This document shows, piece after piece, positions 54,190 to 63,311 of a DNA stretch of 64,000 nucleotides. Source of the DNA: Ostreococcus lucimarinus (Eukaryota); assembly GCA_000092065.1 (NCBI GenBank), contig CP000593.1; one strand, 5' to 3'. The notes beneath the pieces are model-generated. The model saw only the letters and a list, made by a program, of their open reading frames with translations. It did no database searches and had not been told where the DNA came from. Numbering within the stretch: the first letter of the stretch is position 1; the number at the start of each line of letters is the position of its first letter. A program made the translations under genes and the position numbers.

Positions 54190-54966
54190 CTACGCGCGCG
54201 GCCCAGGAACGATGCTATTATAGTGCACTTCTGCAAAGAAGGACAGCCATAAACTTCTCGGCGAATTCACATCGGCGCCCTCTTTTGGTGTAATCTCGAT
54301 GAAACCGTGCTCGGAGTACGAAGTTATGATGTTTATATCGACTCCGTACGCATCTGCCGCGGCTTGCAACGTAATGTGATCGCCCCACTCGCCCGCGTTT
54401 GACATTTTCTGGACGTATTCGTCGAAATCGAGAGGAGCGGCGTAAGGCGCGTAGTCGTCCGGATTTCGCACCAATCGATCGCAAACTGCCGCGCGGACGG
54501 CGTCGTGATTTTCTCCCCCATCCCGAAATAATTGATCACTGAGCGCTCGAAACTGACAGTTCCCATCGCCAGTGATGATTTTTTCCCGAACGCCGTAGAA
54601 GTCCAGACGCAACAGCAAGCGTGAGTGGTCAGCATCGACTACCGCCGATGCCGGTGGGCCTGTCGTAGATGCATCGACGACGAAATCGTTCAATTTCGGC
54701 ACGAACGCATTCTTTAACGCAGACCGCTCGCCGATGACGTCCACGAGACCGGCCTCGGCCTCCGCCACGGCGCGCGCGATGGCTCGGTCAAGTTCGCCGT
54801 CAACGTCCAAGACCAACTCCTGTGCATCACTCAAGCTCCTGGCGAGCGCCGCGTCGCGCTCAATTTGTGCGTCGATACTTGCGACGTCGCGTTCGTCGAT
54901 CGATAACGCCGCGGCGATGGCAGCGTCGTCGATGGTCGAGTCTTCACCGCGCTCATTCGTCCCCAT
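54190..54966 (-). CDS. OTU-domain cysteine protease (deubiquitinase)
   Basis: ATG at 54966. OTU catalytic blocks: ITGDGNCQFRALSDQL (Cys box), EWGDHITLQAAADAYGV, EVHYNSI (His box). Confidence 0.85.
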   Translation of the reverse strand: MGTNERGEDSTIDDAAIAAALSIDERDVASIDAQIERDAALARSLSDAQELVLDVDGELDRAIARAVAEAEAGLVDVIGERSALKNAFVPKLNDFVVDASTTGPPASAVVDADHSRLLLRLDFYGVREKIITGDGNCQFRALSDQLFRDGGENHDAVRAAVCDRLVRNPDDYAPYAAPLDFDEYVQKMSNAGEWGDHITLQAAADAYGVDINIITSYSEHGFIEITPKEGADVNSPRSLWLSFFAEVHYNSIVPGPRA

Positions 54967-55203: not shown

Positions 55204-58200
55204 TCACGACGTTGCACAGAACGCGGCGTCTTCGGTGAAGATGTTAGCGATGGTGACGTTCTGCTCAGGGAGCTGTAACGCCAAACCGTCGATGTGACGA
55301 ACGGTGAAGAGGGCGCTCGATGGACCGCCGACAATCCAGCACTCGGCACAGAGAGAGATATCGCGGAACGTGAGCTCGACGCCGGCCTCGACAACTTTAG
55401 CTTCGACGTAGACGCCACAGCCATTGTCATCGCTTGATGGTGGTCCATCGCGAGATCGCACGCCGACGAAGATGCAATCGACGATGAAGTCTTCTGGAGG
55501 CGCGACAATCGGAGCTTCGTTCGCAGCAACGACGATTCTCTCAAATGGAAGCATCACGGCGACACCATTCAGGCAGATTTGATCGCTCACGCGTCCAAAA
55601 TTGATCGCTGTTCCTGTAACGACAGCTTGAGAACCACCTTCGCCGCGTAAGAGCTGGAGACTCAAGCGTGCGTCCGTCTCGCGTAAACGCTCTGGCGCGG
55701 ACTCCGTCGGACAAATCGTTGCGTCGTCGGGTGAGCACGTTCTCGAAAGTCCATCGACCGGAATCGGCGCCGGAGTCGGTGTGGATGGCGGTGCACCAGG
55801 AGGCAACTGTGCGCCCGGTATTACCGTAATCGTCGACGCTGGGATCTGCACAGGGACACCAGGCTGAAGAGTGAAGTAAGTCGCGGAATCCGGAGCTGGA
55901 GGCGTGGGCGATGATTCTGTCGGAGGCGTAGGCGTAGGCGTTGGCGTAGGCGTTGGCGAAGGCGTTGGCGTAGGCGTTGGCGAAGGCGTTGGCGAAGGCG
56001 TTGGTGAAGGCGTTGGCGAAGGCGTTGGTGAAGGCGTTGGTGAAGGCGTTGGTGGTGGTGATGGCGATGGTGGAGACCTTTGCGTAGGAAACCATCCGCT
56101 CGTCCAAGGAACGTCCGGACCTCGATCCCATGCGGCAATTTCCGTAGGTCCACGCTCCGCGGTGTATCCACCGCCAATCGCCCGTTTCAACCAACACGAG
56201 TGATATGCAAAGTCTTTGCAATCGCCGGTACAGTAAACCCACGTATCACAGTCGCGCGTTCGAAAGCATGCTTGGCAACACGCCTCTTCGGTATCGACGA
56301 TGAATTTTGAGCCATCGCGAAGAAGTATGCCTTTGAGGTTCAATCCTTTTTCGCCGTTGCACACGAGACCGTTTACCGGTGTTGGCGTCATCGGAGGTGA
56401 AGTCGGAAGCATCGCAATTGGCTCAACGAGTTGTCCTTGTATGTCTCTTCGACAAGTGGGGTTTCCAACCGATGGCCCAACGTAATCAAAACGCGCGCCC
56501 GAAAGCGATACAACGCGAAACAAGGTCTCATTGTCGCCCTGGAGTTTGCATCCAGCACACAGCGTGACGTTCGACAGGGAGACTTCGAGCAAAGTAACTT
56601 TCGGCAGTGGTCGTCCACTCGCCTCGTTGAAGACGCCGTCGGGTGCGTACGATGCCATGCGGAATTGAAGCCCTGCACAAGGTTCGAGGCTCGGAGTGCG
56701 AGATTCGCCGTTCACGACGGTTATCATCAAACACTCAATGGCGTACTCGTCGAAAGGATTTTGAACTTCTCTCCACGTACCGTTGATGTCATTTACCCAC
56801 GAACTCAGCACGATTGGGATGTTGACATCAATCAACCGAATCGCACCACCGTCGTTGTTTACTCCAATCGAGCCGCGGAAATCATAGCGGTTGAATGGCG
56901 CGACTCGGAAGTCGCCACCGACGTCGACGCGTTCACCAAACCACGACAGCGAGGCTTGAACGCGTGGAAGGACATCGAGACAATCCACGGGGCGTCCTCC
57001 ATCTGAGGTTTCGCCGTCGAAACCGTCGCGAAAAGATGGACGTGCGTATTGCGTCAAATTGAAGCCAGCGAGCGGTCGTAACGGCGCGATCGATGGTGTG
57101 ATGTCTGTGCGATTTGCGTCGCCAAACTGGTCTTGATCTGGAAAGAAGGGAATGCCACCAAAGAACTGTAGCAATTTGCGTCGTGAATCGTTAGGAGGAC
57201 TCTCGAATACGTCTGTCCAACTACCTCCGACATCGCATTGAAGCGCTCGAATCGTTGGCGCGAGTGCGTCGAGTGTCGCCTCTGATTCATGCTTTGCGGT
57301 GAACAGTTTACCATCTTGAACACGTCCCGTGATGGCGGCATCCGGAGGAATCGTCAAGTTTGCAAGTGTTATTTTGATACCGGCGATACTTTCTTCAATC
57401 GTCGCGCGATCGCACAGCGTATCATCTAGGACTTCTCCGCGAGCGGATATGAGCGAGAGTCCAGCGCATTCCACAGATGGAACGCTCAAAGCATCAACGA
57501 ATTCATTCATGTTACCTTCCCGACGTCGATAGCCAATCACGACCGTGACTTCAGGAACACGAATTGTGCTATTCGCGCAACAACCGATTGCGCCGAGAAC
57601 GTCGTAATCGGTCGAGTTTGGCCGCGAGGCGACGACGAGAAAGTTCTTCAGTTCTCGGACCGGATCGCACTCGCTGCGTCCAGGCGTGTCGCTTGGAATC
57701 ACTTGACCGTTTTCAACGACAACACCGTATCCTTCAAGCGGGCGTGTAATGGGTGGAGTGTCCGTTCCGATCGGAATCGTCGGATCGGTGTCATTTCCGG
57801 GCCGTTCAACGACGATGGTTTGAACCCCTAATTCCTCGGAGAGCGCCGGGCAGGCTTCCGTCAAATTGAACCCGCATCCTAGCGGCGTGAACCCAACAAT
57901 CTCTCGCAAGAACATGACGTTATCGTCGGTGATGAGTGTGAAATCATCGCACAGACAGCTTTCGTTGTGCAATCGAGCTGCAGCGCCGCAGCACGGTGCA
58001 AAATCAGAGATGCGTGGTATCACTCCGACATCGTTTTGCTGAATCGCGCTGCAGTATTTCCGCGTCACGTCAATCGTATCGGCGCAGGAGATGTCATCTC
58101 GCAACGCGCCACCATCGTCAACAATGCGCTCCCACTTTTCGTCGGGGATGACGAACTCGGGTACCGCAGTCGGAGTGCTCAAGAATTGCGTCAAAAGCTG

Positions 58201-61200
58201 CTGATCCTCGCACACGTCACCGACTTTGATTCTAAAACCGCACGCAAGAGGCGTAAATGCTGAAAGTTCACCTACGGACGGGCGGATGCCTTCGAAACTT
58301 TGAATGAACTCTGGAACGCAGAAACATCCAGCTTCATCCAAGTCGCTCAGCGCAACGCAACAACTCGGGAACGAAGCAGGGTTCGGACCACTGATGGTCG
58401 CAGTTTCAAATCCCACGCACAGTTCTTCGACACGTGGGATATTCGACACGCACAACGATGTGAGCTGCGAGTATTCCGAAGTCGGTACGAGAGCTATGAC
58501 ACGAACAAGGCGTTCTGCGGAGACATCGCATCCACCTGAGTCACGCACTCGGTAATACACGCGATAAGTGCCGACACGACTGGTGTCCACTTCGCTTGTG
58601 TCTGCCTCGATTGCGTCTGAAATGTCACCGTCGAGTTCATCCGTCGCAACAGCCCCGGGGTCAACGTACAGCGAGTTGAGCAAGACTTCATTTTGCACTG
58701 CATTTGGTCCGCCGACGAGACGTAGCGTTGGGCATTCATCGACTGGAGGTGGTGGACTCGGCGGTGGCGGTGGAGGCGGCAACGGTGGCGGCGATGGTGG
58801 AGGGGGGCTTGGTGGCGGGGGGCTCGGCACTGGAGGCGGCGGTGGTGGACTCGGCGGCGACGGCGATGGGGGCGATGGGGGTGGTGGTGATGGGCTCGGT
58901 GGTAGAGGACTCGGCGGCGGCGGCGATGGAGAAGGCGGGCTCGGCGGCGGCGGCGATGGAAGCGGACTCGGCGGCGGTGGCGATGGCGGAGGTGGACTTG
59001 GAGGCGGACTCGGAAAGCAAGACAGGCCGGAAACGAGCTCAAGTCCAGAGTCACAGAGAGTCGGTGCAGTGATTTGAACGGTGCGAATCGCATCACCGAG
59101 TTCGTCGATGATGGCTGTATCGCAAAAGCAACGCTCGACGTTCATTCCCCTAACAATGTCGCAGCATGACGGATCGAAAGCTTCGTCATTTTCGATGCCA
59201 AAAATTGATCCACATCGACCTTGTAAATCCTGAAGAAGTCGGAGACAAGTAGGAAGAATCGGAGGGGATGGAGATGGCACCGCCACCGGCGGTGGAGGTG
59301 GCGGCGATGGAACTTCCACCGGCGGTTGCGGCGGAGGTGATGGCGATGGAACTTCCACCGGCGGTTGCGGCGGAGGTGATGGCGATGGAACTTCCACCGG
59401 CGGTTGCGGCGGAGGTGATGGCGATGGAACTTCCACCGGCGGTTGCGGCGGAGGTGATGGCGATGGAACTTCCACCGGCGGTTGCGGCGGAGGTGATGGC
59501 GATGGAACTTCCACCGGCGGTGACGGCGAGGGAGGTGATGGTGATGGAACTTCCACCGGTGGAGGAGGAGACGGTGAAGGTTGCACGATCGGAGGCGATG
59601 GTGGTGGTGATGGCATCATGACTTCAGCGCCGACTACGCCGCTTGTCCATGTCACGTTTTCCCCGCGTTCCCAAGCCGGCACCGGAATCGTTTCCACATC
59701 TTCTTTCGAAAGCTTCTTCAGCCAGCATTCGCCGAACTTGTAGTCGTAGTACTCGTTGCCACAGCCATCGATAGACGCGCAGAATACCCAAGCATTGCAC
59801 TTTTTCATTTTTTTGCACTCGGCGCAGCATTCGGTTTCGCTATCGACAACCAAGTCCGAGCCGCTATTCAACGGATGTCCCTTGTAATTGGCGTTTTCTT
59901 CTACTCGACACCCCTCAATCGACGGGACGGGTTCAGGAATTCGATCGACGAGCGAGCCACTGACCCAAGGAACGCCGTCGCCTCGCGCGATGGCTGGTGG
60001 TTTTTGAGGGTCGCCGCCGACGAGAAAAAGTTTCAACACACACGTCTGGTAAGCGAATTCGCCATCGCATCCGCTGACGTCATCGCAAAAGTTCCACACA
60101 GCACACGCTGGATCAGCGAGGCAAGCGTCGCAGCACGCGCTCCAAGAGACTGCGTTAACAATTGAAATCTGGATTCCGTCGTAGTTTGCGTTTGTCTCTG
60201 CTCGACATTCTTTGCGCTCGTTTGATGTATCAAACGGCACTGGCTCCACTTCTTTATCACGCAGCGCACCGGAGATATAAGTCGCGTTTGGTCCACGTTT
60301 GCCAGGAATGGTGTCTTGAGAAATGATTTCCGGTGCGGCGTACTTGAGTTCGCAGGATGAGTACGAATAAGCGAACTCCGATCGCCCGCATCCGTCGTTG
60401 GCGGTACAGAACGTCCACACGTTGCAGTTTGGATTTTCTCTACAGGCTAAGCAGCAAGCTTCGGGAGATGGAACCAAGAACAAACCAGTAGTGAGTGTAG
60501 ATCCTTCGTACTCTGCGTTTGCCTCCTCGTCGCACGGGCGGACGAGCTCCGCGTCAGTCGGCCCGTCGCCCCGCGGAAATCCAGCGCAAATCGGTTCGCG
60601 TAAACCATTCGGCGAAATTTCTGTGCTCGAGAAACCACGACCATCCGCGTACGAGAGATCGAGAACGACGTTGTTTGGACCACCGACGATGAAGCAGCCC
60701 GGGCACAGCACTAAATCATCACCAAAACTGAGTTCTACGCCTCGTTCGGTAACGACGGCTTTGCATGTTGCCGCGGCGTCGCTCATGGGTACCGATGAGA
60801 TCGGATAGACGATTTGCAACCCCTCGCACGCGGCTTGCAACTGAGACTGCTCGTAGTCTCCGCCGAGATCGATCGCGAACGTCACCTTTGACGCGTCAAG
60901 AGTGCTGCACGAGCGATGTCCGACGATGCCGCGAATTCGAGCGACGCCGTCTTCAATCTGAGACTCGAGAGTGCTGAAGACGACGTCGAGAAGACTCGGA
61001 CACGCACTCAGCATGATTTGAGCGTTTGGATTCCAGCCAAACGTTGACGTTGGTGCGACACTTACGATTGAGGATGCGGTGGTAAACGCGCTGGGATCGC
61101 ACGTGGGATCGAGCGCGCGCACCGATTCGGCGTCAAGCACGCGCGATTCGCGATCTCGAAAAGAAAACAAAAAGTTCGAGTATCCTCCGGCGAGGAACTC

Positions 61201-61644
61201 GCCAGCGTTTAAAGCGATGGCGCCAAACGTCACACGTGGGCCGACATCATTCATCTGGATGCTTAAATCGCCGCAGTCGACGATTCGCCGCGCACCGCTC
61301 GGAGCGACGATCTGCGACCCCCAACACGTAAACTCAAACTCGCCGAGCGTCGTAAACTCGCTCGCGGCGTCATCCAATCGTATCAATTTCGAAAATTCAA
61401 ACTGAACCGTAACTCCATTCAAATTCACCTCGCGATCGGCATCATTCACGATCAACACGCTCGCGTACGTCTCGCGCGCGCCGCGATCCGCGTCGTCGGC
61501 GCGCGGCGCGTCGACGCCGACGCGAAGCATCGAATCCGTCGGCGTCGAGTGACTCCACGCGTACGCATCGATGGACAACGCCCCACCACCGAATCCTTCG
61601 CAATTCACACCCGCAAAATCCACGTTCGTCGCTTCATCGTCCAC
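55204..61644 (-). CDS. Giant (at least 2146 aa) extracellular-matrix/cell-surface glycoprotein: 4 PAN/apple-like modules, extensin-like Pro-rich blocks, an Ig-like (DUF5011/HYR-like) module and three 8-Cys-motif modules; 5' end unresolved
   Basis: A single 6.4-kb open frame.
- PAN/apple-like modules: CCLACRENPNCNVWTFC, CCDACLADPACAVWNFC, CCAECKKMKKCNAWVFC (59690-60530) and CCQACFRTRDCDTWVYC (56170-56350).
- Pro-rich blocks: PVEVPSPSPPPQP repeats, an SPPPP block (58740-59010) and a (PTPS)n block (55905-56065).
- 8CM modules at 59017-59247, 58210-58452 and 57850-58086.
The ORF-track start is GTG, and no ATG or signal peptide is present at the N-terminus. Confidence 0.8.
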   Translation of the reverse strand: MDDEATNVDFAGVNCEGFGGGALSIDAYAWSHSTPTDSMLRVGVDAPRADDADRGARETYASVLIVNDADREVNLNGVTVQFEFSKLIRLDDAASEFTTLGEFEFTCWGSQIVAPSGARRIVDCGDLSIQMNDVGPRVTFGAIALNAGEFLAGGYSNFLFSFRDRESRVLDAESVRALDPTCDPSAFTTASSIVSVAPTSTFGWNPNAQIMLSACPSLLDVVFSTLESQIEDGVARIRGIVGHRSCSTLDASKVTFAIDLGGDYEQSQLQAACEGLQIVYPISSVPMSDAAATCKAVVTERGVELSFGDDLVLCPGCFIVGGPNNVVLDLSYADGRGFSSTEISPNGLREPICAGFPRGDGPTDAELVRPCDEEANAEYEGSTLTTGLFLVPSPEACCLACRENPNCNVWTFCTANDGCGRSEFAYSYSSCELKYAAPEIISQDTIPGKRGPNATYISGALRDKEVEPVPFDTSNERKECRAETNANYDGIQISIVNAVSWSACCDACLADPACAVWNFCDDVSGCDGEFAYQTCVLKLFLVGGDPQKPPAIARGDGVPWVSGSLVDRIPEPVPSIEGCRVEENANYKGHPLNSGSDLVVDSETECCAECKKMKKCNAWVFCASIDGCGNEYYDYKFGECWLKKLSKEDVETIPVPAWERGENVTWTSGVVGAEVMMPSPPPSPPIVQPSPSPPPPVEVPSPSPPSPSPPVEVPSPSPPPQPPVEVPSPSPPPQPPVEVPSPSPPPQPPVEVPSPSPPPQPPVEVPSPSPPPQPPVEVPSPPPPPPVAVPSPSPPILPTCLRLLQDLQGRCGSIFGIENDEAFDPSCCDIVRGMNVERCFCDTAIIDELGDAIRTVQITAPTLCDSGLELVSGLSCFPSPPPSPPPPSPPPPSPLPSPPPPSPPSPSPPPPSPLPPSPSPPPPSPPSPSPPSPPPPPPVPSPPPPSPPPPSPPPLPPPPPPPSPPPPVDECPTLRLVGGPNAVQNEVLLNSLYVDPGAVATDELDGDISDAIEADTSEVDTSRVGTYRVYYRVRDSGGCDVSAERLVRVIALVPTSEYSQLTSLCVSNIPRVEELCVGFETATISGPNPASFPSCCVALSDLDEAGCFCVPEFIQSFEGIRPSVGELSAFTPLACGFRIKVGDVCEDQQLLTQFLSTPTAVPEFVIPDEKWERIVDDGGALRDDISCADTIDVTRKYCSAIQQNDVGVIPRISDFAPCCGAAARLHNESCLCDDFTLITDDNVMFLREIVGFTPLGCGFNLTEACPALSEELGVQTIVVERPGNDTDPTIPIGTDTPPITRPLEGYGVVVENGQVIPSDTPGRSECDPVRELKNFLVVASRPNSTDYDVLGAIGCCANSTIRVPEVTVVIGYRRREGNMNEFVDALSVPSVECAGLSLISARGEVLDDTLCDRATIEESIAGIKITLANLTIPPDAAITGRVQDGKLFTAKHESEATLDALAPTIRALQCDVGGSWTDVFESPPNDSRRKLLQFFGGIPFFPDQDQFGDANRTDITPSIAPLRPLAGFNLTQYARPSFRDGFDGETSDGGRPVDCLDVLPRVQASLSWFGERVDVGGDFRVAPFNRYDFRGSIGVNNDGGAIRLIDVNIPIVLSSWVNDINGTWREVQNPFDEYAIECLMITVVNGESRTPSLEPCAGLQFRMASYAPDGVFNEASGRPLPKVTLLEVSLSNVTLCAGCKLQGDNETLFRVVSLSGARFDYVGPSVGNPTCRRDIQGQLVEPIAMLPTSPPMTPTPVNGLVCNGEKGLNLKGILLRDGSKFIVDTEEACCQACFRTRDCDTWVYCTGDCKDFAYHSCWLKRAIGGGYTAERGPTEIAAWDRGPDVPWTSGWFPTQRSPPSPSPPPTPSPTPSPTPSPTPSPTPSPTPSPTPTPTPSPTPTPTPTPTPPTESSPTPPAPDSATYFTLQPGVPVQIPASTITVIPGAQLPPGAPPSTPTPAPIPVDGLSRTCSPDDATICPTESAPERLRETDARLSLQLLRGEGGSQAVVTGTAINFGRVSDQICLNGVAVMLPFERIVVAANEAPIVAPPEDFIVDCIFVGVRSRDGPPSSDDNGCGVYVEAKVVEAGVELTFRDISLCAECWIVGGPSSALFTVRHIDGLALQLPEQNVTIANIFTEDAAFCATS
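59303..59570. repeat. Coding minisatellite, ~7 x 39 bp (PVEVPSPSPPPQP units) inside the giant gene
   Basis: ggcgatggaacttccaccggcgg anchors lie at 59303, 59342, 59381, 59420, 59459 and 59498, with a variant at 59540. The period is exactly 39 bp and the five central copies are identical. Confidence 0.9.
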
Positions 61645-62093
61645 CTACACCGCCGCGCGCGCGTCAGTCGCGTCCTTCATCCTCGTCTCGCGATTCCATC
61701 GCGGCGTCTCGACGCCGACGCCGCGTCCCGCGCGAATCCTCGCCTCGCACCTGCAGCATCGTCCGCGACGTCCCGAGCCCTTCCCGCGCGCGCGCCACTC
61801 GCGTCTTCGTCCCACCGCCGCGCTTTCGTCAGTCTTTCCCTTCGTCGTCGCGCGCCGTCCCGTTCGAATCGTCCTTCGTCGCGTCGCGTCGCTTTCGAGA
61901 TACGAAGCGTCGTTCGGTCCCATCGTTCGCGTCGTTCGCACCATCGCGCACGCCGCGACGACCGCGTCGCGCACGCGCGCCGCGCCGCGCGTCGTTCGTC
62001 GTCGCGTCGCTCTCGCGTCGCGTCGCATCGTTTCGTCGTTCCCCGTCGTCGCGATGTGTCGTCCATCGTCCGTCCGTCATCCATTCACTCATC

Positions 62094-63311
62094 ATGCATT
62101 CGACCCGGTCGCGCGTCGTCGATGTCGACCGACCGACCGACCGACCGATCGATGCGATGCGATGCGATGCGATGGATGACGCGCGGCACACGTCCGCGAC
62201 GCGCGGCATGGCGAGCGACGCGCGAACGAATCGCGCCAAGGCGTACGCGTACGCGTGCGGACTCGCGATCGGCGCGTTCGCCGTCGTCGCGGGCGCGATG
62301 CGCGACGGACGCGCGGGGACGATGACGGCGGTCGCGCGACGCGCGATGACGGGCGACGGCGGGACGCGCGAGGGCGCGACGGCGATGACGGAGGACGAGA
62401 AAGGGACGACGACGACGACGAGGACGGACGAGGACGAGGACGCGAACGAGGACGAGGACGTCGGGGAGATGGAACGAAGATTCACGCGGTGCGCGGGACA
62501 GTTTAAAAAGTTGCTCGCGGACGCCGACGCGTACTTTGAGCCCGGGCTCAAGGCGAAGATGTACGGGTTGTATAAGCGATGCACGAAGGATTTCGATCGA
62601 GAATTTGAGGGTGGTAAAACGTTCGGCGCGTTGGATGTCGTGGCGAGGGCGAAATACGAGGCGTGGAAGGAGGTGAAGGATTTGACGCGGGAGGAGGCGA
62701 TGGAGCGATACGTGCGGACGTTTGAGATGTGGGGGGCGAGGCGGGACTCGATGCGACCGTCGACGGCGACGCGGAACGCCGATGGGTTCACCGAGGAGGA
62801 CAGACTCGCCGCAGAGGAGTTTCACGCGAGAGATGAGGAGGAGAAGGAGGTGTACGCGAATATGTGGTCGATAAACCGGTCGCAGAGTCGACCGGCGCCG
62901 CTCGAGGACGACGACGAAGCGTCGCAGAGCGCGTCGAACAGCGGCGAGTTGGGGGCGCTGAGCGCGGCGTGTAAGGCAGGTGATGAGGACGCGGCGATGA
63001 AAGCGATCGAGGGCGGTGCGGATGTTAACGAACGCGATGCACTCGGGCGAACGCCGTTGCATTGGTGCGCAGACGGCGGACACTCGAAAATCGCCATGCA
63101 CCTGGCGCTTTTGAAGGCTGACGTCAACGCTCGCGATAGATACGGGCAAACGCCTTTGCACTTTTCGGTCAACTTAGATGACACGGAGACGGTAAATTTA
63201 TTCCTTGACTGGGGCGCAGATCCTTCGATCGCGGACGAGGAAGGGGAGACGCCTGAATCGCTCGGGATTTGGCAGCTCGCCGCGGCGCGCGAAGAAAACG
63301 CGACGGCGTGA
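62094..63311 (+). CDS. Acyl-CoA-binding protein with N-terminal TM anchor and C-terminal ankyrin repeats (ACBP1/2, ACBD6-like)
   Basis: ACB domain: FTRCAGQFKKL......KMYGLYKRCT......ARAKYEAWKEVKDLTREEAMERYV. TM helix: AYAYACGLAIGAFAVVAGA. Two ankyrin repeats: GRTPLHWCADGGHSKIAMHLALLKADVNARDRYGQTPLHFSV. ATGs lie at 62094 and 62208, and the latter is the more plausible start. Confidence 0.85.
   Translation: MHSTRSRVVDVDRPTDRPIDAMRCDAMDDARHTSATRGMASDARTNRAKAYAYACGLAIGAFAVVAGAMRDGRAGTMTAVARRAMTGDGGTREGATAMTEDEKGTTTTTRTDEDEDANEDEDVGEMERRFTRCAGQFKKLLADADAYFEPGLKAKMYGLYKRCTKDFDREFEGGKTFGALDVVARAKYEAWKEVKDLTREEAMERYVRTFEMWGARRDSMRPSTATRNADGFTEEDRLAAEEFHARDEEEKEVYANMWSINRSQSRPAPLEDDDEASQSASNSGELGALSAACKAGDEDAAMKAIEGGADVNERDALGRTPLHWCADGGHSKIAMHLALLKADVNARDRYGQTPLHFSVNLDDTETVNLFLDWGADPSIADEEGETPESLGIWQLAAAREENATA

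What the first reader, a model, noticed from the sequence alone, without database searches (positions are those of the whole stretch)
55204..61644. Giant surface protein carries three complete 8-cysteine (nsLTP/HyPRP-type) motifs next to extensin-like proline blocks in a prasinophyte
Three segments (59017-59247, 58210-58452, 57850-58086, minus strand) each show the full pattern C...C...CC...CxC...C...C. For example: TCLRLLQDLQGRCGS..PSCCDIVRGMNVERCFCDT..TLCDSG..GLSC; then SLCVSN..ELCVG..PSCCVALSDLDEAGCFCVP..LACGF..DVCED; then SCADT..KYCSA..APCCGAAARLHNESCLCDD..LGCGF..EACPA. This is the defining 8CM signature of plant lipid-transfer and hybrid proline-rich proteins. Here it sits directly beside SPPPP and PVEVPSPSPPPQP blocks, which is exactly the HyPRP logic (proline-rich domain plus 8CM). 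As far as I remember, surveys placed nsLTP/8CM proteins only in land plants, so an algal occurrence fused to PAN/apple and Ig-like modules would bear on the origin of that fold. The triple internal repetition argues against a chance cysteine pattern.
Basis: partly seen in the sequence, partly recalled or inferred. Interest (0 to 1): 0.7.

Follow-up and report, generated by a model that had tools for sequence, protein, structure and literature searches.

The report
Three LTP-type cysteine modules, giant algal protein
A 2146-residue mosaic protein of the tiny marine green alga Ostreococcus lucimarinus really does contain three conserved eight-cysteine domains distantly related to plant lipid-transfer/seed-storage proteins, but such domains were already known in green algae, so only the giant multi-domain arrangement is new.

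Summary
The ORF 55204-61644 (-) encodes 2146 aa. It carries three C..C..CC..CxC..C..C modules at exactly the stated coordinates, flanked by proline-rich tracts, four PAN domains and one Ig-like domain. A shuffle test expects 0.0005 such motifs; 3 are observed. All 24 cysteines are kept in a 78%-identical orthologue. The genome is Ostreococcus lucimarinus CCE9901.

The window's modules do not reach any Pfam LTP-clan threshold on their own. Their best hit (E=0.033) equals a cysteine-only shuffle control. Fold searches are non-specific. The modules do belong to a small algal family: 41 hits among 1.84 billion proteins, and hhalign probability 97.8% between subfamilies. Other members of that family pass Pfam's curated cut-offs for PF00234 and LTP_2, far above the control. 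Homology to the prolamin/LTP superfamily is therefore well supported, but only transitively.

The claim of a first algal occurrence is outdated. Huang et al. 2023 reported algal nsLTPs, including two in O. tauri, and a Micromonas family member is already named as having this domain. HyPRP homology, lipid binding and a surface location are unproven, and no signal peptide was found. What is new is the mosaic, multi-8CM architecture.

The parts
55204..61644 (-). Main exon / ORF of the giant mosaic protein (2146 codons plus stop)
   Evidence: The orthologue L020 is 71% identical overall with whole-gene dN/dS about 0.11. The ORF was called as 2078- and 2051-aa genes on metagenome contigs.
61751..61759 (-). 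Putative 9-nt first coding exon ATG CTG CAG (Met-Leu-Gln), followed by a GTGCGA donor (inferred)
   Evidence: This is the only conserved block in the diverged upstream region when compared with L020. The Leu codon is CTG in the window and TTA in L020, a synonymous difference.
61645..61750 (-). Putative 106-nt intron (GT...CTGAC...TAG). Its AG forms the in-frame 'stop' directly upstream of the ORF (inferred)
   Evidence: CTGAC lies at 61663-61667, 19 nt upstream of the AG. The TAG|GT acceptor is conserved in L020.
60550..61644 (-). N-terminal region (aa 1-365) of unknown fold; contains a C-x2-C-F-I-V-G-G-P motif segment that recurs at the C-terminus
   Evidence: No Pfam, NCBIfam or PDB match. 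Internal repeat aa 295-342 versus 2081-2127, blastp 1e-5.
60268..60534 (-). PAN/apple domain 1 (aa ~371-459)
   Evidence: Pfam PAN_4, 4 stretches, E=5.1e-46; internal repeat.
59965..60207 (-). PAN/apple domain 2 (aa ~480-560; boundaries approximate)
   Evidence: Pfam PAN_4; the cysteine pattern matches PAN1 and PAN3.
59638..59910 (-). PAN/apple domain 3 (aa ~579-669)
   Evidence: Pfam PAN_4 and PAN_1; internal repeat.
59254..59619 (-). Proline-rich spacer A: PVEVPSPSPPPQP repeats (39-bp tandem repeat, 6.9 copies)
   Evidence: Four repeat units (52 aa) are missing in the near-identical metagenome copy L001.
59017..59247 (-). 8CM module 1 (aa 800-876), C-x10-C-x15-CC-x10-CFC-x22-C-x11-C
   Evidence: All 8 Cys are kept in L020. 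Sub-threshold Pfam hits PF00234 E=0.033 and PF14547 E=0.084. Local family HMM E=3e-13. dN/dS 0.13.
58741..59010 (-). Proline-rich spacer B: extensin-like SP3-5 tract (aa 879-968)
   Evidence: 20 SP3+ motifs in the protein.
58498..58677 (-). Ig-like domain (Pfam Bact_surface_Ig-like), directly N-terminal to module 2
   Evidence: E=2.3e-12. The same Ig-like-then-8CM order is seen in P0106-P0109 and P0112.
58210..58452 (-). 8CM module 2 (aa 1065-1145), C-x10-C-x18-CC-x10-CFC-x25-C-x9-C
   Evidence: E=6e-24. AlphaFold2 pLDDT 86.4, 4-5 helices. dN/dS 0.10.
57850..58086 (-). 8CM module 3 (aa 1187-1265), C-x10-C-x19-CC-x10-CLC-x24-C-x7-C
   Evidence: E=1e-19.
56365..57840 (-). Middle region of unknown fold (aa 1269-1760)
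   Evidence: No Pfam or PDB match; conserved in orthologues P0106-P0109.
56095..56361 (-). PAN/apple domain 4 (aa ~1762-1850)
   Evidence: Pfam PAN_4; blastp to PAN1 and PAN3; dN/dS 0.03.
55750..56079 (-). Pro/Thr/Ser-rich spacer C, (SPTP)n, 12-bp tandem repeat
   Evidence: 16-aa copy-number difference from L001.
55207..55749 (-). C-terminal region of unknown fold (aa 1966-2146), related to part of the N-terminal region

Best explanation
The three segments are three copies of one ~80-residue domain. It is a compact, acidic, all-helical module locked by four disulfides, and it is a divergent Mamiellophyceae branch of the prolamin superfamily (nsLTP / 2S albumin / 'bifunctional inhibitor-LTP-seed storage' helical domain).

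The domain family occurs in two architectures in prasinophyte-type algae. One is signal-peptide-bearing proteins of about 280-650 aa, with up to three modules separated by proline-rich linkers. The other is giant mosaic proteins like this one. Here the modules are strung between hydroxyproline-rich-glycoprotein-type spacers and combined with four PAN/apple domains, one Ig-like domain and three regions of unknown fold.

Shown: the motif, its non-random nature, conservation under purifying selection, homology among modules and to the algal family, and that family's membership of the Pfam LTP clan.

Inferred: each module folds like an nsLTP (C1 in helix 1 and C2 just after its end, CC in helix 2, CxC just before helix 3, C7 just after helix 4, C8 in the C-terminal arm), with nsLTP2/DIR1-like pairing, because X in CxC is hydrophobic. 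The modules would serve as protease-resistant binding knobs, most likely for a hydrophobic or lipid ligand, displayed on rigid glycosylated spacers of a secretory-pathway adhesion or matrix-type glycoprotein. Ligand, location and biological role are not established.
For: - Motif and chance.
- Conservation: all 24 Cys are kept in the 78%-identical orthologue and dN/dS is about 0.1.
- Family: a profile of the three window modules finds 41 proteins at E<=1e-3 among 1.84e9, down to 3.8e-54, including P0114 at 6.5e-13. About 100 modules were extracted, and the 8 Cys are the only invariant columns.
- Subfamily link: giant-type versus secreted-type modules give hhalign probability 97.8%, P=1.2e-12 over 75 columns.
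- Link to the clan: 33 of 49 modules hit PF00234 (best 3.7e-6), 14 hit LTP_2 and 6 hit Hydrophob_seed, with no other recurrent family. Nine of 10 full-length secreted-type relatives pass the PF00234 gathering score, and three pass LTP_2 (P0114 at 37.5 bits against a cut-off of 22).
- Control: with Cys fixed and other residues shuffled, only 2 of 49 hit PF00234, best E=0.054.
- The only PDB sequences matched by the family profile are 2S albumins: SFA-8 at E=0.015 and conglutin at 0.17.
- UniRef names the family member M. commoda C1EDE8 as having this domain.
- Cys spacing is close to the verified DIR1 (9/15/9/24/7) and wheat nsLTP2 (7/13/8/23/6) sequences.
Against: - The window protein and its giant orthologues do not themselves reach any LTP-clan gathering score. 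Module 1's hits are at the cysteine-only baseline.
- Direct hhalign to DIR1, the DIR1 family and wheat nsLTP2 is weak: P=0.002-0.016, probability 3-14%.
- Foldseek finds nothing below E=3.
- The modules are acidic (pI about 4.1-4.3), unlike classical basic nsLTPs.
- No signal peptide, TM segment or GPI signal was found, so secretion is inferred only from the domain content.
Confidence: 0.78

Rival explanations
1. Convergence: the modules form an independent algal cysteine-rich helical domain that happens to share the CC/CxC framework with plant 8CM proteins, without common ancestry.
For: There is no direct significant match of the window modules or giant orthologues to any LTP-clan HMM. hhalign to bona fide plant members is weak. 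Fold searches are non-specific. No land-plant protein is among the 41 significant hits of the module profile. A cysteine framework alone can produce E~0.02-0.07 hits to these HMMs.
Against: Real family modules score orders of magnitude better than cysteine-fixed shuffles: 33 of 49 against 2 of 49, and 3.7e-6 against 0.054. Nine of 10 relatives pass curated cut-offs of two different clan families. The only PDB sequence hits are prolamin-superfamily proteins. The predicted helix and cysteine topology matches.
Confidence: 0.15
2. The protein is a true homologue or ancestor of plant hybrid proline-rich proteins (HyPRPs): the proline-rich block plus 8CM arrangement is inherited rather than analogous.
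For: Module 1 is flanked by proline-rich repeats. Its second-best Pfam hit is Hydrophob_seed, covering 15-84 of 85 profile positions. Secreted relatives also alternate Pro-rich linkers with 8CM modules.
Against: The Hydrophob_seed hit (E=0.084, 13.7 bits against a cut-off of 23.4) is at the shuffle baseline (0.067). Only 6 of 49 family modules hit it, and none of the 10 full-length relatives passes its cut-off. HyPRPs are small, with a signal peptide and one C-terminal 8CM, whereas here three modules lie inside a 2146-aa mosaic. The Pro-rich tracts are fast-evolving tandem repeats whose copy number varies between strains, so their juxtaposition is easily convergent.
Confidence: 0.05
3. A chance cysteine pattern, or non-coding or mis-framed sequence in a GC-rich genome.
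For: GC-rich genomes give many long spurious ORFs (one search lists several overlapping ones).
Against: 0.0005 motifs are expected and 3 are observed. Pfam finds PAN and Ig-like domains in the same frame. The orthologue keeps the frame and all the Cys, with dN/dS about 0.1. There are 41 homologues.
Confidence: 0.01

Closest known systems
Green-algal nsLTP lineage of Huang et al. 2023 (BMC Plant Biol 23:21, PMC9832785), including OtLTP1 (OUS48719.1) and OtLTP2 (XP_022839860.1) of Ostreococcus tauri
   Same: 8CM motif in a chlorophyte or prasinophyte, acidic pI, hydrophobic X in CxC (their AII group has Leu), and intronless Ostreococcus genes. The sizes of OtLTP1 and OtLTP2 (413 and 482 aa with signal peptide) resemble the three-module secreted relatives found here (431-484 aa). 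Half of their candidates were recognised as LTP_2 by Pfam, like P0114, P0120 and P0127 here.
   Different: They kept only proteins with a signal peptide and below 60 kDa, and treated each as one 8CM. This protein is 227 kDa, has three modules plus PAN and Ig-like domains, and shows no signal peptide. Whether OtLTP1 and OtLTP2 belong to the same module family could not be tested, because no sequences were available. O. lucimarinus was not in their survey.
Micromonas commoda XP_002505095.1 / UniRef100_C1EDE8 and similar secreted proteins with up to three modules (P0114, P0119, P0120, P0124, P0125, P0127, P0128, P0133)
   Same: They carry the same domain family: the window-module profile scores E up to 6.5e-13, and hhalign gives 97.8%. 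Proline-rich linkers lie between the modules. They come from the same algal class.
   Different: They are short (276-652 aa), have N-terminal signal peptides and no PAN or Ig-like domains, and pass the Pfam PF00234 and LTP_2 cut-offs. The window's modules do not.
Plant nsLTP2 / DIR1-type lipid-transfer proteins (PDB 1TUK/1N89, 2RKN; Pfam PF00234, PF14368)
   Same: 8CM order, similar Cys spacing, hydrophobic residue in CxC, a CC-x2-L-x2-L type helix-2 motif, and a predicted 4-5-helix bundle of about 8 kDa. DIR1 is also acidic (pI 4.5).
   Different: The plant proteins are stand-alone secreted proteins of 7-10 kDa with proven lipid cavities. Direct sequence-profile similarity to the algal family is weak (P=0.002-0.016), and no lipid-binding or disulfide data exist for the algal modules.
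Plant hybrid proline-rich proteins (HyPRP; Pfam PF14547)
   Same: A proline-rich repetitive block lies next to an 8CM domain.
   Different: A HyPRP has a signal peptide, one proline-rich domain and one C-terminal 8CM. Here there are three internal modules in a mosaic giant protein, the PF14547 cut-off is not met, and the resemblance is most simply analogous.
Chimeric hydroxyproline-rich glycoproteins of green algae (e.g. Chlamydomonas/Volvox HRGPs with globular Cys-rich heads on Pro-rich shafts; from general knowledge)
   Same: The overall design is the same: rod-like SP(n)/TP(n) spacers alternating with globular disulfide-rich modules, and repeat copy number is variable.
   Different: Ostreococcus has no cell wall or scales. 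The globular modules here are PAN, Ig-like and 8CM types. No homology was tested.

Membership tests
Prolamin superfamily / nsLTP (Pfam PF00234, PF14368, PF14547; 'bifunctional inhibitor/LTP/seed storage helical domain') | Eight-cysteine motif C-Xn-C-Xn-CC-Xn-CXC-Xn-C-Xn-C | tested here: met
   Three exact instances with exactly 8 Cys each; 0.0005 expected by chance; conserved in the orthologue.
Prolamin superfamily / nsLTP (Pfam PF00234, PF14368, PF14547; 'bifunctional inhibitor/LTP/seed storage helical domain') | Cys spacing in the range of known members | tested here: met
   10/15-19/10/22-25/7-11, compared with the PDB-verified DIR1 (9/15/9/24/7) and wheat nsLTP2 (7/13/8/23/6).
Prolamin superfamily / nsLTP (Pfam PF00234, PF14368, PF14547; 'bifunctional inhibitor/LTP/seed storage helical domain') | The protein itself scores above the curated gathering threshold of a clan HMM | tested here: not met
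   The whole protein gives no LTP-clan hit at E<=1. Module 1 scores 14.9 bits (cut-off 21.7) and 13.7 bits (cut-off 23.4). Modules 2 and 3 give nothing. This level equals the Cys-only shuffles. Giant orthologues also fall below the cut-off.
Prolamin superfamily / nsLTP (Pfam PF00234, PF14368, PF14547; 'bifunctional inhibitor/LTP/seed storage helical domain') | Transitive homology: significant profile links to proteins that do pass the curated thresholds | tested here: met
   Window profile to P0114 at E=6.5e-13 among 1.84e9 proteins. hhalign 97.8%, P=1.2e-12. P0114 scores 37.5 bits on LTP_2 and 29.4 bits on PF00234, and 9 of 10 relatives pass PF00234. The shuffle control is negative.
Prolamin superfamily / nsLTP (Pfam PF00234, PF14368, PF14547; 'bifunctional inhibitor/LTP/seed storage helical domain') | Four-helix right-handed superhelix fold | tested here: inconclusive
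Prolamin superfamily / nsLTP (Pfam PF00234, PF14368, PF14547; 'bifunctional inhibitor/LTP/seed storage helical domain') | Disulfide map C2-C3, C4-C7 and C1-C6/C5-C8 (type 1) or C1-C5/C6-C8 (type 2) | not testable with these tools
The only hint is two P0122 modules that lack C5 together with one N-terminal Cys, which fits C1-C5.
Prolamin superfamily / nsLTP (Pfam PF00234, PF14368, PF14547; 'bifunctional inhibitor/LTP/seed storage helical domain') | Hydrophobic cavity and lipid binding (nsLTP sensu stricto) | not testable with these tools
   No coordinates or experiments were available. The only data are by analogy: Chlamydomonas CrLTP2 binds fatty acids (PMC9832785).
Prolamin superfamily / nsLTP (Pfam PF00234, PF14368, PF14547; 'bifunctional inhibitor/LTP/seed storage helical domain') | Small (7-10 kDa), secreted via an N-terminal signal peptide, usually basic | tested here: not met
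   The modules are internal to a 227-kDa protein and have pI 4.05-4.26. No signal peptide is present in the ORF, in the putative exon 1 or in any upstream frame.
Hybrid proline-rich proteins (HyPRP) | Signal peptide, then an N-terminal proline-rich domain, then a single C-terminal 8CM of Hydrophob_seed (PF14547) type | tested here: not met
   Pro-rich tracts do flank module 1. However, there is no signal peptide, the three modules are internal, and PF14547 scores 13.7 bits against a cut-off of 23.4. Only 6 of 49 family modules hit it, all sub-threshold in full-length scans.
Algal nsLTP lineage as defined by Huang et al. 2023 | 8CM (spacing allowed up to 50), signal peptide present, mass below 60 kDa | tested here: not met
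   The 8CM is met, but the mass is 227 kDa and no signal peptide is detected. Their filter would have discarded this protein.
Algal nsLTP lineage as defined by Huang et al. 2023 | Sequence relatedness to OtLTP1 and OtLTP2 | not tested
   Only accession numbers are given in the supplement, and the sequences could not be retrieved.
Mamiellophyceae-type 8CM module family (defined here; includes M. commoda XP_002505095.1) | Significant match to the family profile, with 8 invariant Cys and the CC-x2-L-x2-[LM]-[ND]-x3-C-[FL]-C / AP-x2-CGF motifs | tested here: met

The most novel reading that the evidence does not exclude
The 8CM (prolamin/LTP) fold was already a shuffled building block of large mosaic, HRGP-type cell-surface proteins in early-diverging, wall-less green algae. 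It was combined there with PAN/apple and Ig-like modules. On this reading the small stand-alone lipid-transfer, HyPRP and seed-storage proteins of land plants descend from such modular ancestors, which would move the origin of the fold to the base of Viridiplantae and tie it to cell-surface recognition rather than cuticle or seed biology.
Probability: 0.15. Interest if true: 0.6.

Novelty: new variant of a known kind. Interest (0 to 1): 0.35.

Why it matters
This analysis corrects the premise that 8CM domains are restricted to land plants. They are already published and annotated in green algae, including Mamiellophyceae.

It also adds something. The size and signal-peptide filters used in the algal survey hide a second architecture, in which several 8CM modules are embedded in proteins of over 2000 aa, together with PAN and Ig-like domains and variable proline-rich spacers. 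That architecture is conserved across Ostreococcus and Micromonas-like lineages.

This widens the known structural contexts of the prolamin/LTP fold. It provides about 100 divergent algal modules for rooting the superfamily. It also points to an uncharacterised, strongly constrained giant glycoprotein in an alga that has no cell wall. The practical impact is modest until ligand binding, disulfide topology and localisation are measured.

Tried and rejected
1. Word-indexed homologue searches with modules 2+3 and with the 49-module profile found nothing or almost nothing, although the exhaustive HMM search found 41 relatives. The word index simply misses this family.
2. The exact-sequence look-up of the ORF failed. 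The gene is on record only as slightly different alleles.
5. hhalign against single plant sequences and a shallow DIR1 alignment gave only P=0.002-0.016. The DIR1 search returned just 12 close Brassicaceae homologues, so no deep plant profile could be built.
6. Inferring disulfide pairs from natural Cys-loss variants failed. Nearly all 'losses' were alignment truncations.
7. A search for a signal-peptide exon upstream found none in any frame. A hydrophobic stretch in L020's upstream frame is preceded by a stop and is not conserved in the window, so it was rejected.
8. NCBIfam and PDB sequence searches for the three unassigned regions found nothing.
9. Hits P0135, P0138 and P0144 are repeat proteins that match only the 'FFACCDVV' stretch. 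They were excluded as non-members.
10. A literature search for the mosaic architecture found no description.

Full report
**1. What is in the sequence**

The ORF 55204..61644 on the minus strand is real and encodes 2146 residues (227 kDa, pI 4.3). They correspond to aa 800-876, 1065-1145 and 1187-1265. Each begins at the first and ends at the eighth cysteine and contains exactly eight.

- Spacings are C-x10-C-x15-CC-x10-CFC-x22-C-x11-C, C-x10-C-x18-CC-x10-CFC-x25-C-x9-C and C-x10-C-x19-CC-x10-CLC-x24-C-x7-C.
- A strict regular expression for this pattern is expected 0.0005 times per residue-shuffle of the protein, and 0.002 times in the cysteine-rich sub-region. It is observed three times, and nowhere else in the six-frame translation of the window.
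- Pfam confirms the surroundings: four PAN_4 stretches (E=5e-46) and one Bact_surface_Ig-like domain at aa 990-1049 (E=2e-12).
- The PVEVPSPSPPPQP block is a 39-bp tandem repeat of 6.9 copies. An SP3-5 tract follows module 1, and an (SPTP)n tract follows PAN4.

**2. Organism and gene status**

Neighbouring ORFs are exact matches to Ostreococcus lucimarinus CCE9901 proteins XP_001420929.1 and DAA34893.1, so 'prasinophyte' is correct. The exact 2146-aa product is not on record. Near-identical and 78%-identical alleles were called on marine metagenome contigs as 2078-aa and 2051-aa genes, with no Pfam family on record for either.

**3. Conservation**

The orthologue on L020 (71% identical overall, 78% over modules 2-3) is collinear over the whole protein and keeps all 24 module cysteines. 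Nei-Gojobori estimates give dN/dS about 0.10-0.13 for modules 1 and 2, where dS could be estimated, and 0.11 for the whole gene. dS is saturated, so the ratios are rough. These are constrained protein domains and not accidents of composition.

**4. The module family**

An exhaustive hmmsearch with a profile of only the three window modules, against 1.84 billion representative proteins, returned 41 hits at E<=1e-3. They fall into two groups:

- Fragments of orthologous giant proteins (P0106-P0112, P0115, P0117, P0123). These include a GC-rich, presumably Micromonas-type 2288-aa ORF, and they carry 2-5 modules.
- Proteins of 276-652 aa with N-terminal signal peptides and up to three modules (most have three) separated by proline-rich linkers: P0114 at E=6.5e-13, P0119, P0120, P0124, P0125, P0127, P0128, P0133 and others.

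Iterated local HMM searches extracted about 100 modules, of which 54 are complete. Median spacing is 11/18/10/25/9, and X in CxC is F in 43, L in 8 and Y in 2. In a 49-module alignment the eight cysteines are the only invariant columns. Giant-type and secreted-type modules are clearly homologous: hhalign probability 97.8%, P=1.2e-12, over 75 columns from C2 to C8.

**5. Relation to the plant 8CM / LTP superfamily**

Direct evidence for the window protein is weak.
- The whole protein gives no LTP-clan hit.
- Module 1 alone gives PF00234 at E=0.033 (14.9 bits, cut-off 21.7) and PF14547 at E=0.084 (13.7 bits, cut-off 23.4). Modules 2 and 3 give nothing.
- The giant orthologues also stay below the cut-off, with best scores of 20.1 and 16.4 bits.
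- I ran a control that keeps every cysteine in place and shuffles all other residues of the 49 modules. It gives hits of the same weak size: 2 of 49 to PF00234 (best 0.054), 2 of 49 to LTP_2 (0.024) and 1 of 49 to Hydrophob_seed (0.067). The window's own hits therefore say no more than 'it has the cysteine pattern'.

Family-level evidence is strong.
- Of the real modules, 33 of 49 hit PF00234 (best 3.7e-6), 14 hit LTP_2 (2e-4) and 6 hit Hydrophob_seed (1.5e-4). No other family recurs.
- Nine of 10 full-length secreted-type relatives pass Pfam's curated cut-off for PF00234. Three pass LTP_2 (P0114 at 37.5 bits, P0127 at 27.4, P0120 at 22.3; cut-off 22).
- The family profile matches only two PDB sequences below E=10, and both are 2S albumins: SFA-8 at 0.015 and conglutin at 0.17. 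The 3-module profile likewise hit only Ara h 2 and conglutins.
- The 90% cluster of P0120 contains Micromonas commoda XP_002505095.1 (UniRef100_C1EDE8), which UniRef names 'Bifunctional inhibitor/plant lipid transfer protein/seed storage helical...'.

Direct profile comparisons with PDB-verified plant members are weak: P=0.0027 for DIR1 (2RKN), 0.0019 for wheat nsLTP2 (1N89) and 0.016 for a shallow DIR1 family alignment. The aligned columns are nevertheless the expected CC...CxC...C7 ones.

In conclusion, membership of the prolamin/LTP superfamily is well supported, but only transitively, and the giant-protein modules are a divergent branch.

**6. Structure**

With only three sequences, AlphaFold2 gave a low-confidence helical model of module 1 (pLDDT 65). 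With the 49-module alignment, module 2 was modelled confidently (pLDDT 86.4, pTM 0.76), with helices at 2-14, 28-43, 50-56 and 63-73 and a short C-terminal hairpin. The cysteines fall as follows:

- C1 lies in helix 1, and C2 follows immediately after its end.
- CC lies in helix 2.
- CxC sits in a short helical turn just before helix 3.
- C7 follows immediately after helix 4.
- C8 lies in the C-terminal arm.

From my knowledge of nsLTP2 and DIR1 structures, this is the 8CM topology.

**7. What is already known**

Huang et al. 2023 (PMC9832785) searched 35 algal genomes by 8CM pattern. They reported 29 'nsLTPs' in 13 green algae, including two in O. tauri (OtLTP1 and OtLTP2, 394 and 459 mature residues, intronless, acidic), and showed fatty-acid binding for a Chlamydomonas member. 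They explicitly discarded candidates lacking a signal peptide or above 60 kDa.

The same filters explain why a protein like this one has not been described. I found no paper describing 8CM modules combined with PAN and Ig-like domains.

**8. Gene model and targeting (unresolved)**

An in-frame TAG lies directly upstream of the ORF. Comparison with L020 shows one conserved island in the otherwise diverged 450-bp divergent promoter region. It reads ATG CTG CAG|GTGCGA in the window and ATG TTA CAG|GTGCGA in L020, with a synonymous Leu change. There is also a conserved TAG|GT acceptor, and the window has CTGAC 19 nt upstream of the AG.

The simplest model is a 9-nt first exon (61751-61759), a 106-nt intron (61645-61750) and then the long exon. 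This gives an N-terminus MLQVDDEATNVDF... with no hydrophobic signal peptide. No TM segment or GPI-type tail exists either. For a protein made of disulfide-rich PAN and 8CM modules and HRGP-type spacers this is unexpected, and 'surface protein' remains an inference.

**9. Most likely mechanism**

The protein has the design of a chimeric hydroxyproline-rich glycoprotein. Stiff, probably O-glycosylated SP(n)/TP(n)/PVEVPSPSPPPQP spacers vary in copy number between strains: 52-aa and 16-aa differences against otherwise 99.7%-identical alleles. These spacers hold globular binding modules apart.

Within that design, the three 8CM modules are most plausibly compact, disulfide-locked, protease-resistant knobs. 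By homology they may enclose a hydrophobic pocket for a lipid-like ligand. The conserved Ig-like-then-8CM pairing in all orthologues suggests these two act as a unit.

The steps shown are the domain identity, conservation and family relationships. The steps inferred are the fold details, disulfide pairing, ligand, glycosylation, secretion and biological role.

**10. Verdict**

This is not a first algal occurrence of the fold. It is a previously undescribed mosaic, multi-copy context for an already reported algal 8CM domain, so I rate it a new variant of a known kind, of moderate interest.

Noticed in passing
window 61645-61759 (-): Probable gene structure: a 9-nt first exon ATG CTG CAG (61751-61759), then a 106-nt intron (GTGCGA...CTGAC...TAG, 61645-61750) whose AG is part of the apparent in-frame stop before the ORF. 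The exon, donor and acceptor are the only conserved islands when compared with the 78% orthologue, and the Leu codon differs synonymously (CTG vs TTA).
   Followed up: partly
window 55204-62250 (-): No signal peptide, transmembrane segment or GPI-type tail could be found for a protein built of PAN, 8CM and HRGP-type segments. The best hydrophobic 19-mer (aa 2023) contains charged residues. How the protein reaches an oxidising compartment is unexplained.
   Followed up: partly
window 59289-59559 and 55924-56052; L001: Proline-rich spacers are tandem DNA repeats (39-bp x6.9 and 12-bp x10.8) whose copy number differs between the window and near-identical metagenome alleles. L001 lacks 52 aa and 16 aa there, against only 6 substitutions in the other 2078 residues.
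   Followed up: partly
window 60619-60762 and 55264-55404 (-); also aa ~1690-1720: An unassigned repeated segment with the motif C-x2-C-[FWK]-[IL]-[VQ]-GG(P) occurs near the N-terminus, in the middle region and at the C-terminus (blastp 1e-5 between the outer two). The surrounding ~350-, ~490- and ~180-aa regions have no Pfam, NCBIfam or PDB match.
   Followed up: partly
window 58498-58677 (-); P0106-P0109, P0112, P0115, P0117, P0145, P0146: The Ig-like domain matches a Pfam family described for bacterial surface proteins (PF16403). In the window and in every orthologue fragment that covers this region it sits immediately N-terminal to the module equivalent to 8CM-2, which suggests a conserved two-domain unit.
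   Followed up: no
L024/L025: The word-indexed protein search missed the whole family, even 79%-identical orthologues, while the exhaustive HMM search found it. The metagenome gene calls for this ORF carry no Pfam family on record, although PAN_4 scores E=5e-46.
   Followed up: no
window 54190-54966 (-) and 62094-63311 (+): The flanking genes are an OTU-domain protein and an acyl-CoA-binding/ankyrin-repeat protein. The latter is transcribed divergently from the giant gene across a ~450-bp intergenic region. The same neighbours flank the orthologue on metagenome contigs.
   Followed up: no
P0113, P0116, P0122, P0132, P0140, P0141: More distant family members from unidentified, apparently non-Mamiellophyceae marine or metagenomic eukaryotes carry 2-6 modules in Ala/Pro-rich proteins. 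P0132 also has a weak Ig-like hit. Two P0122 modules have lost C5 and one N-terminal Cys.
   Followed up: no
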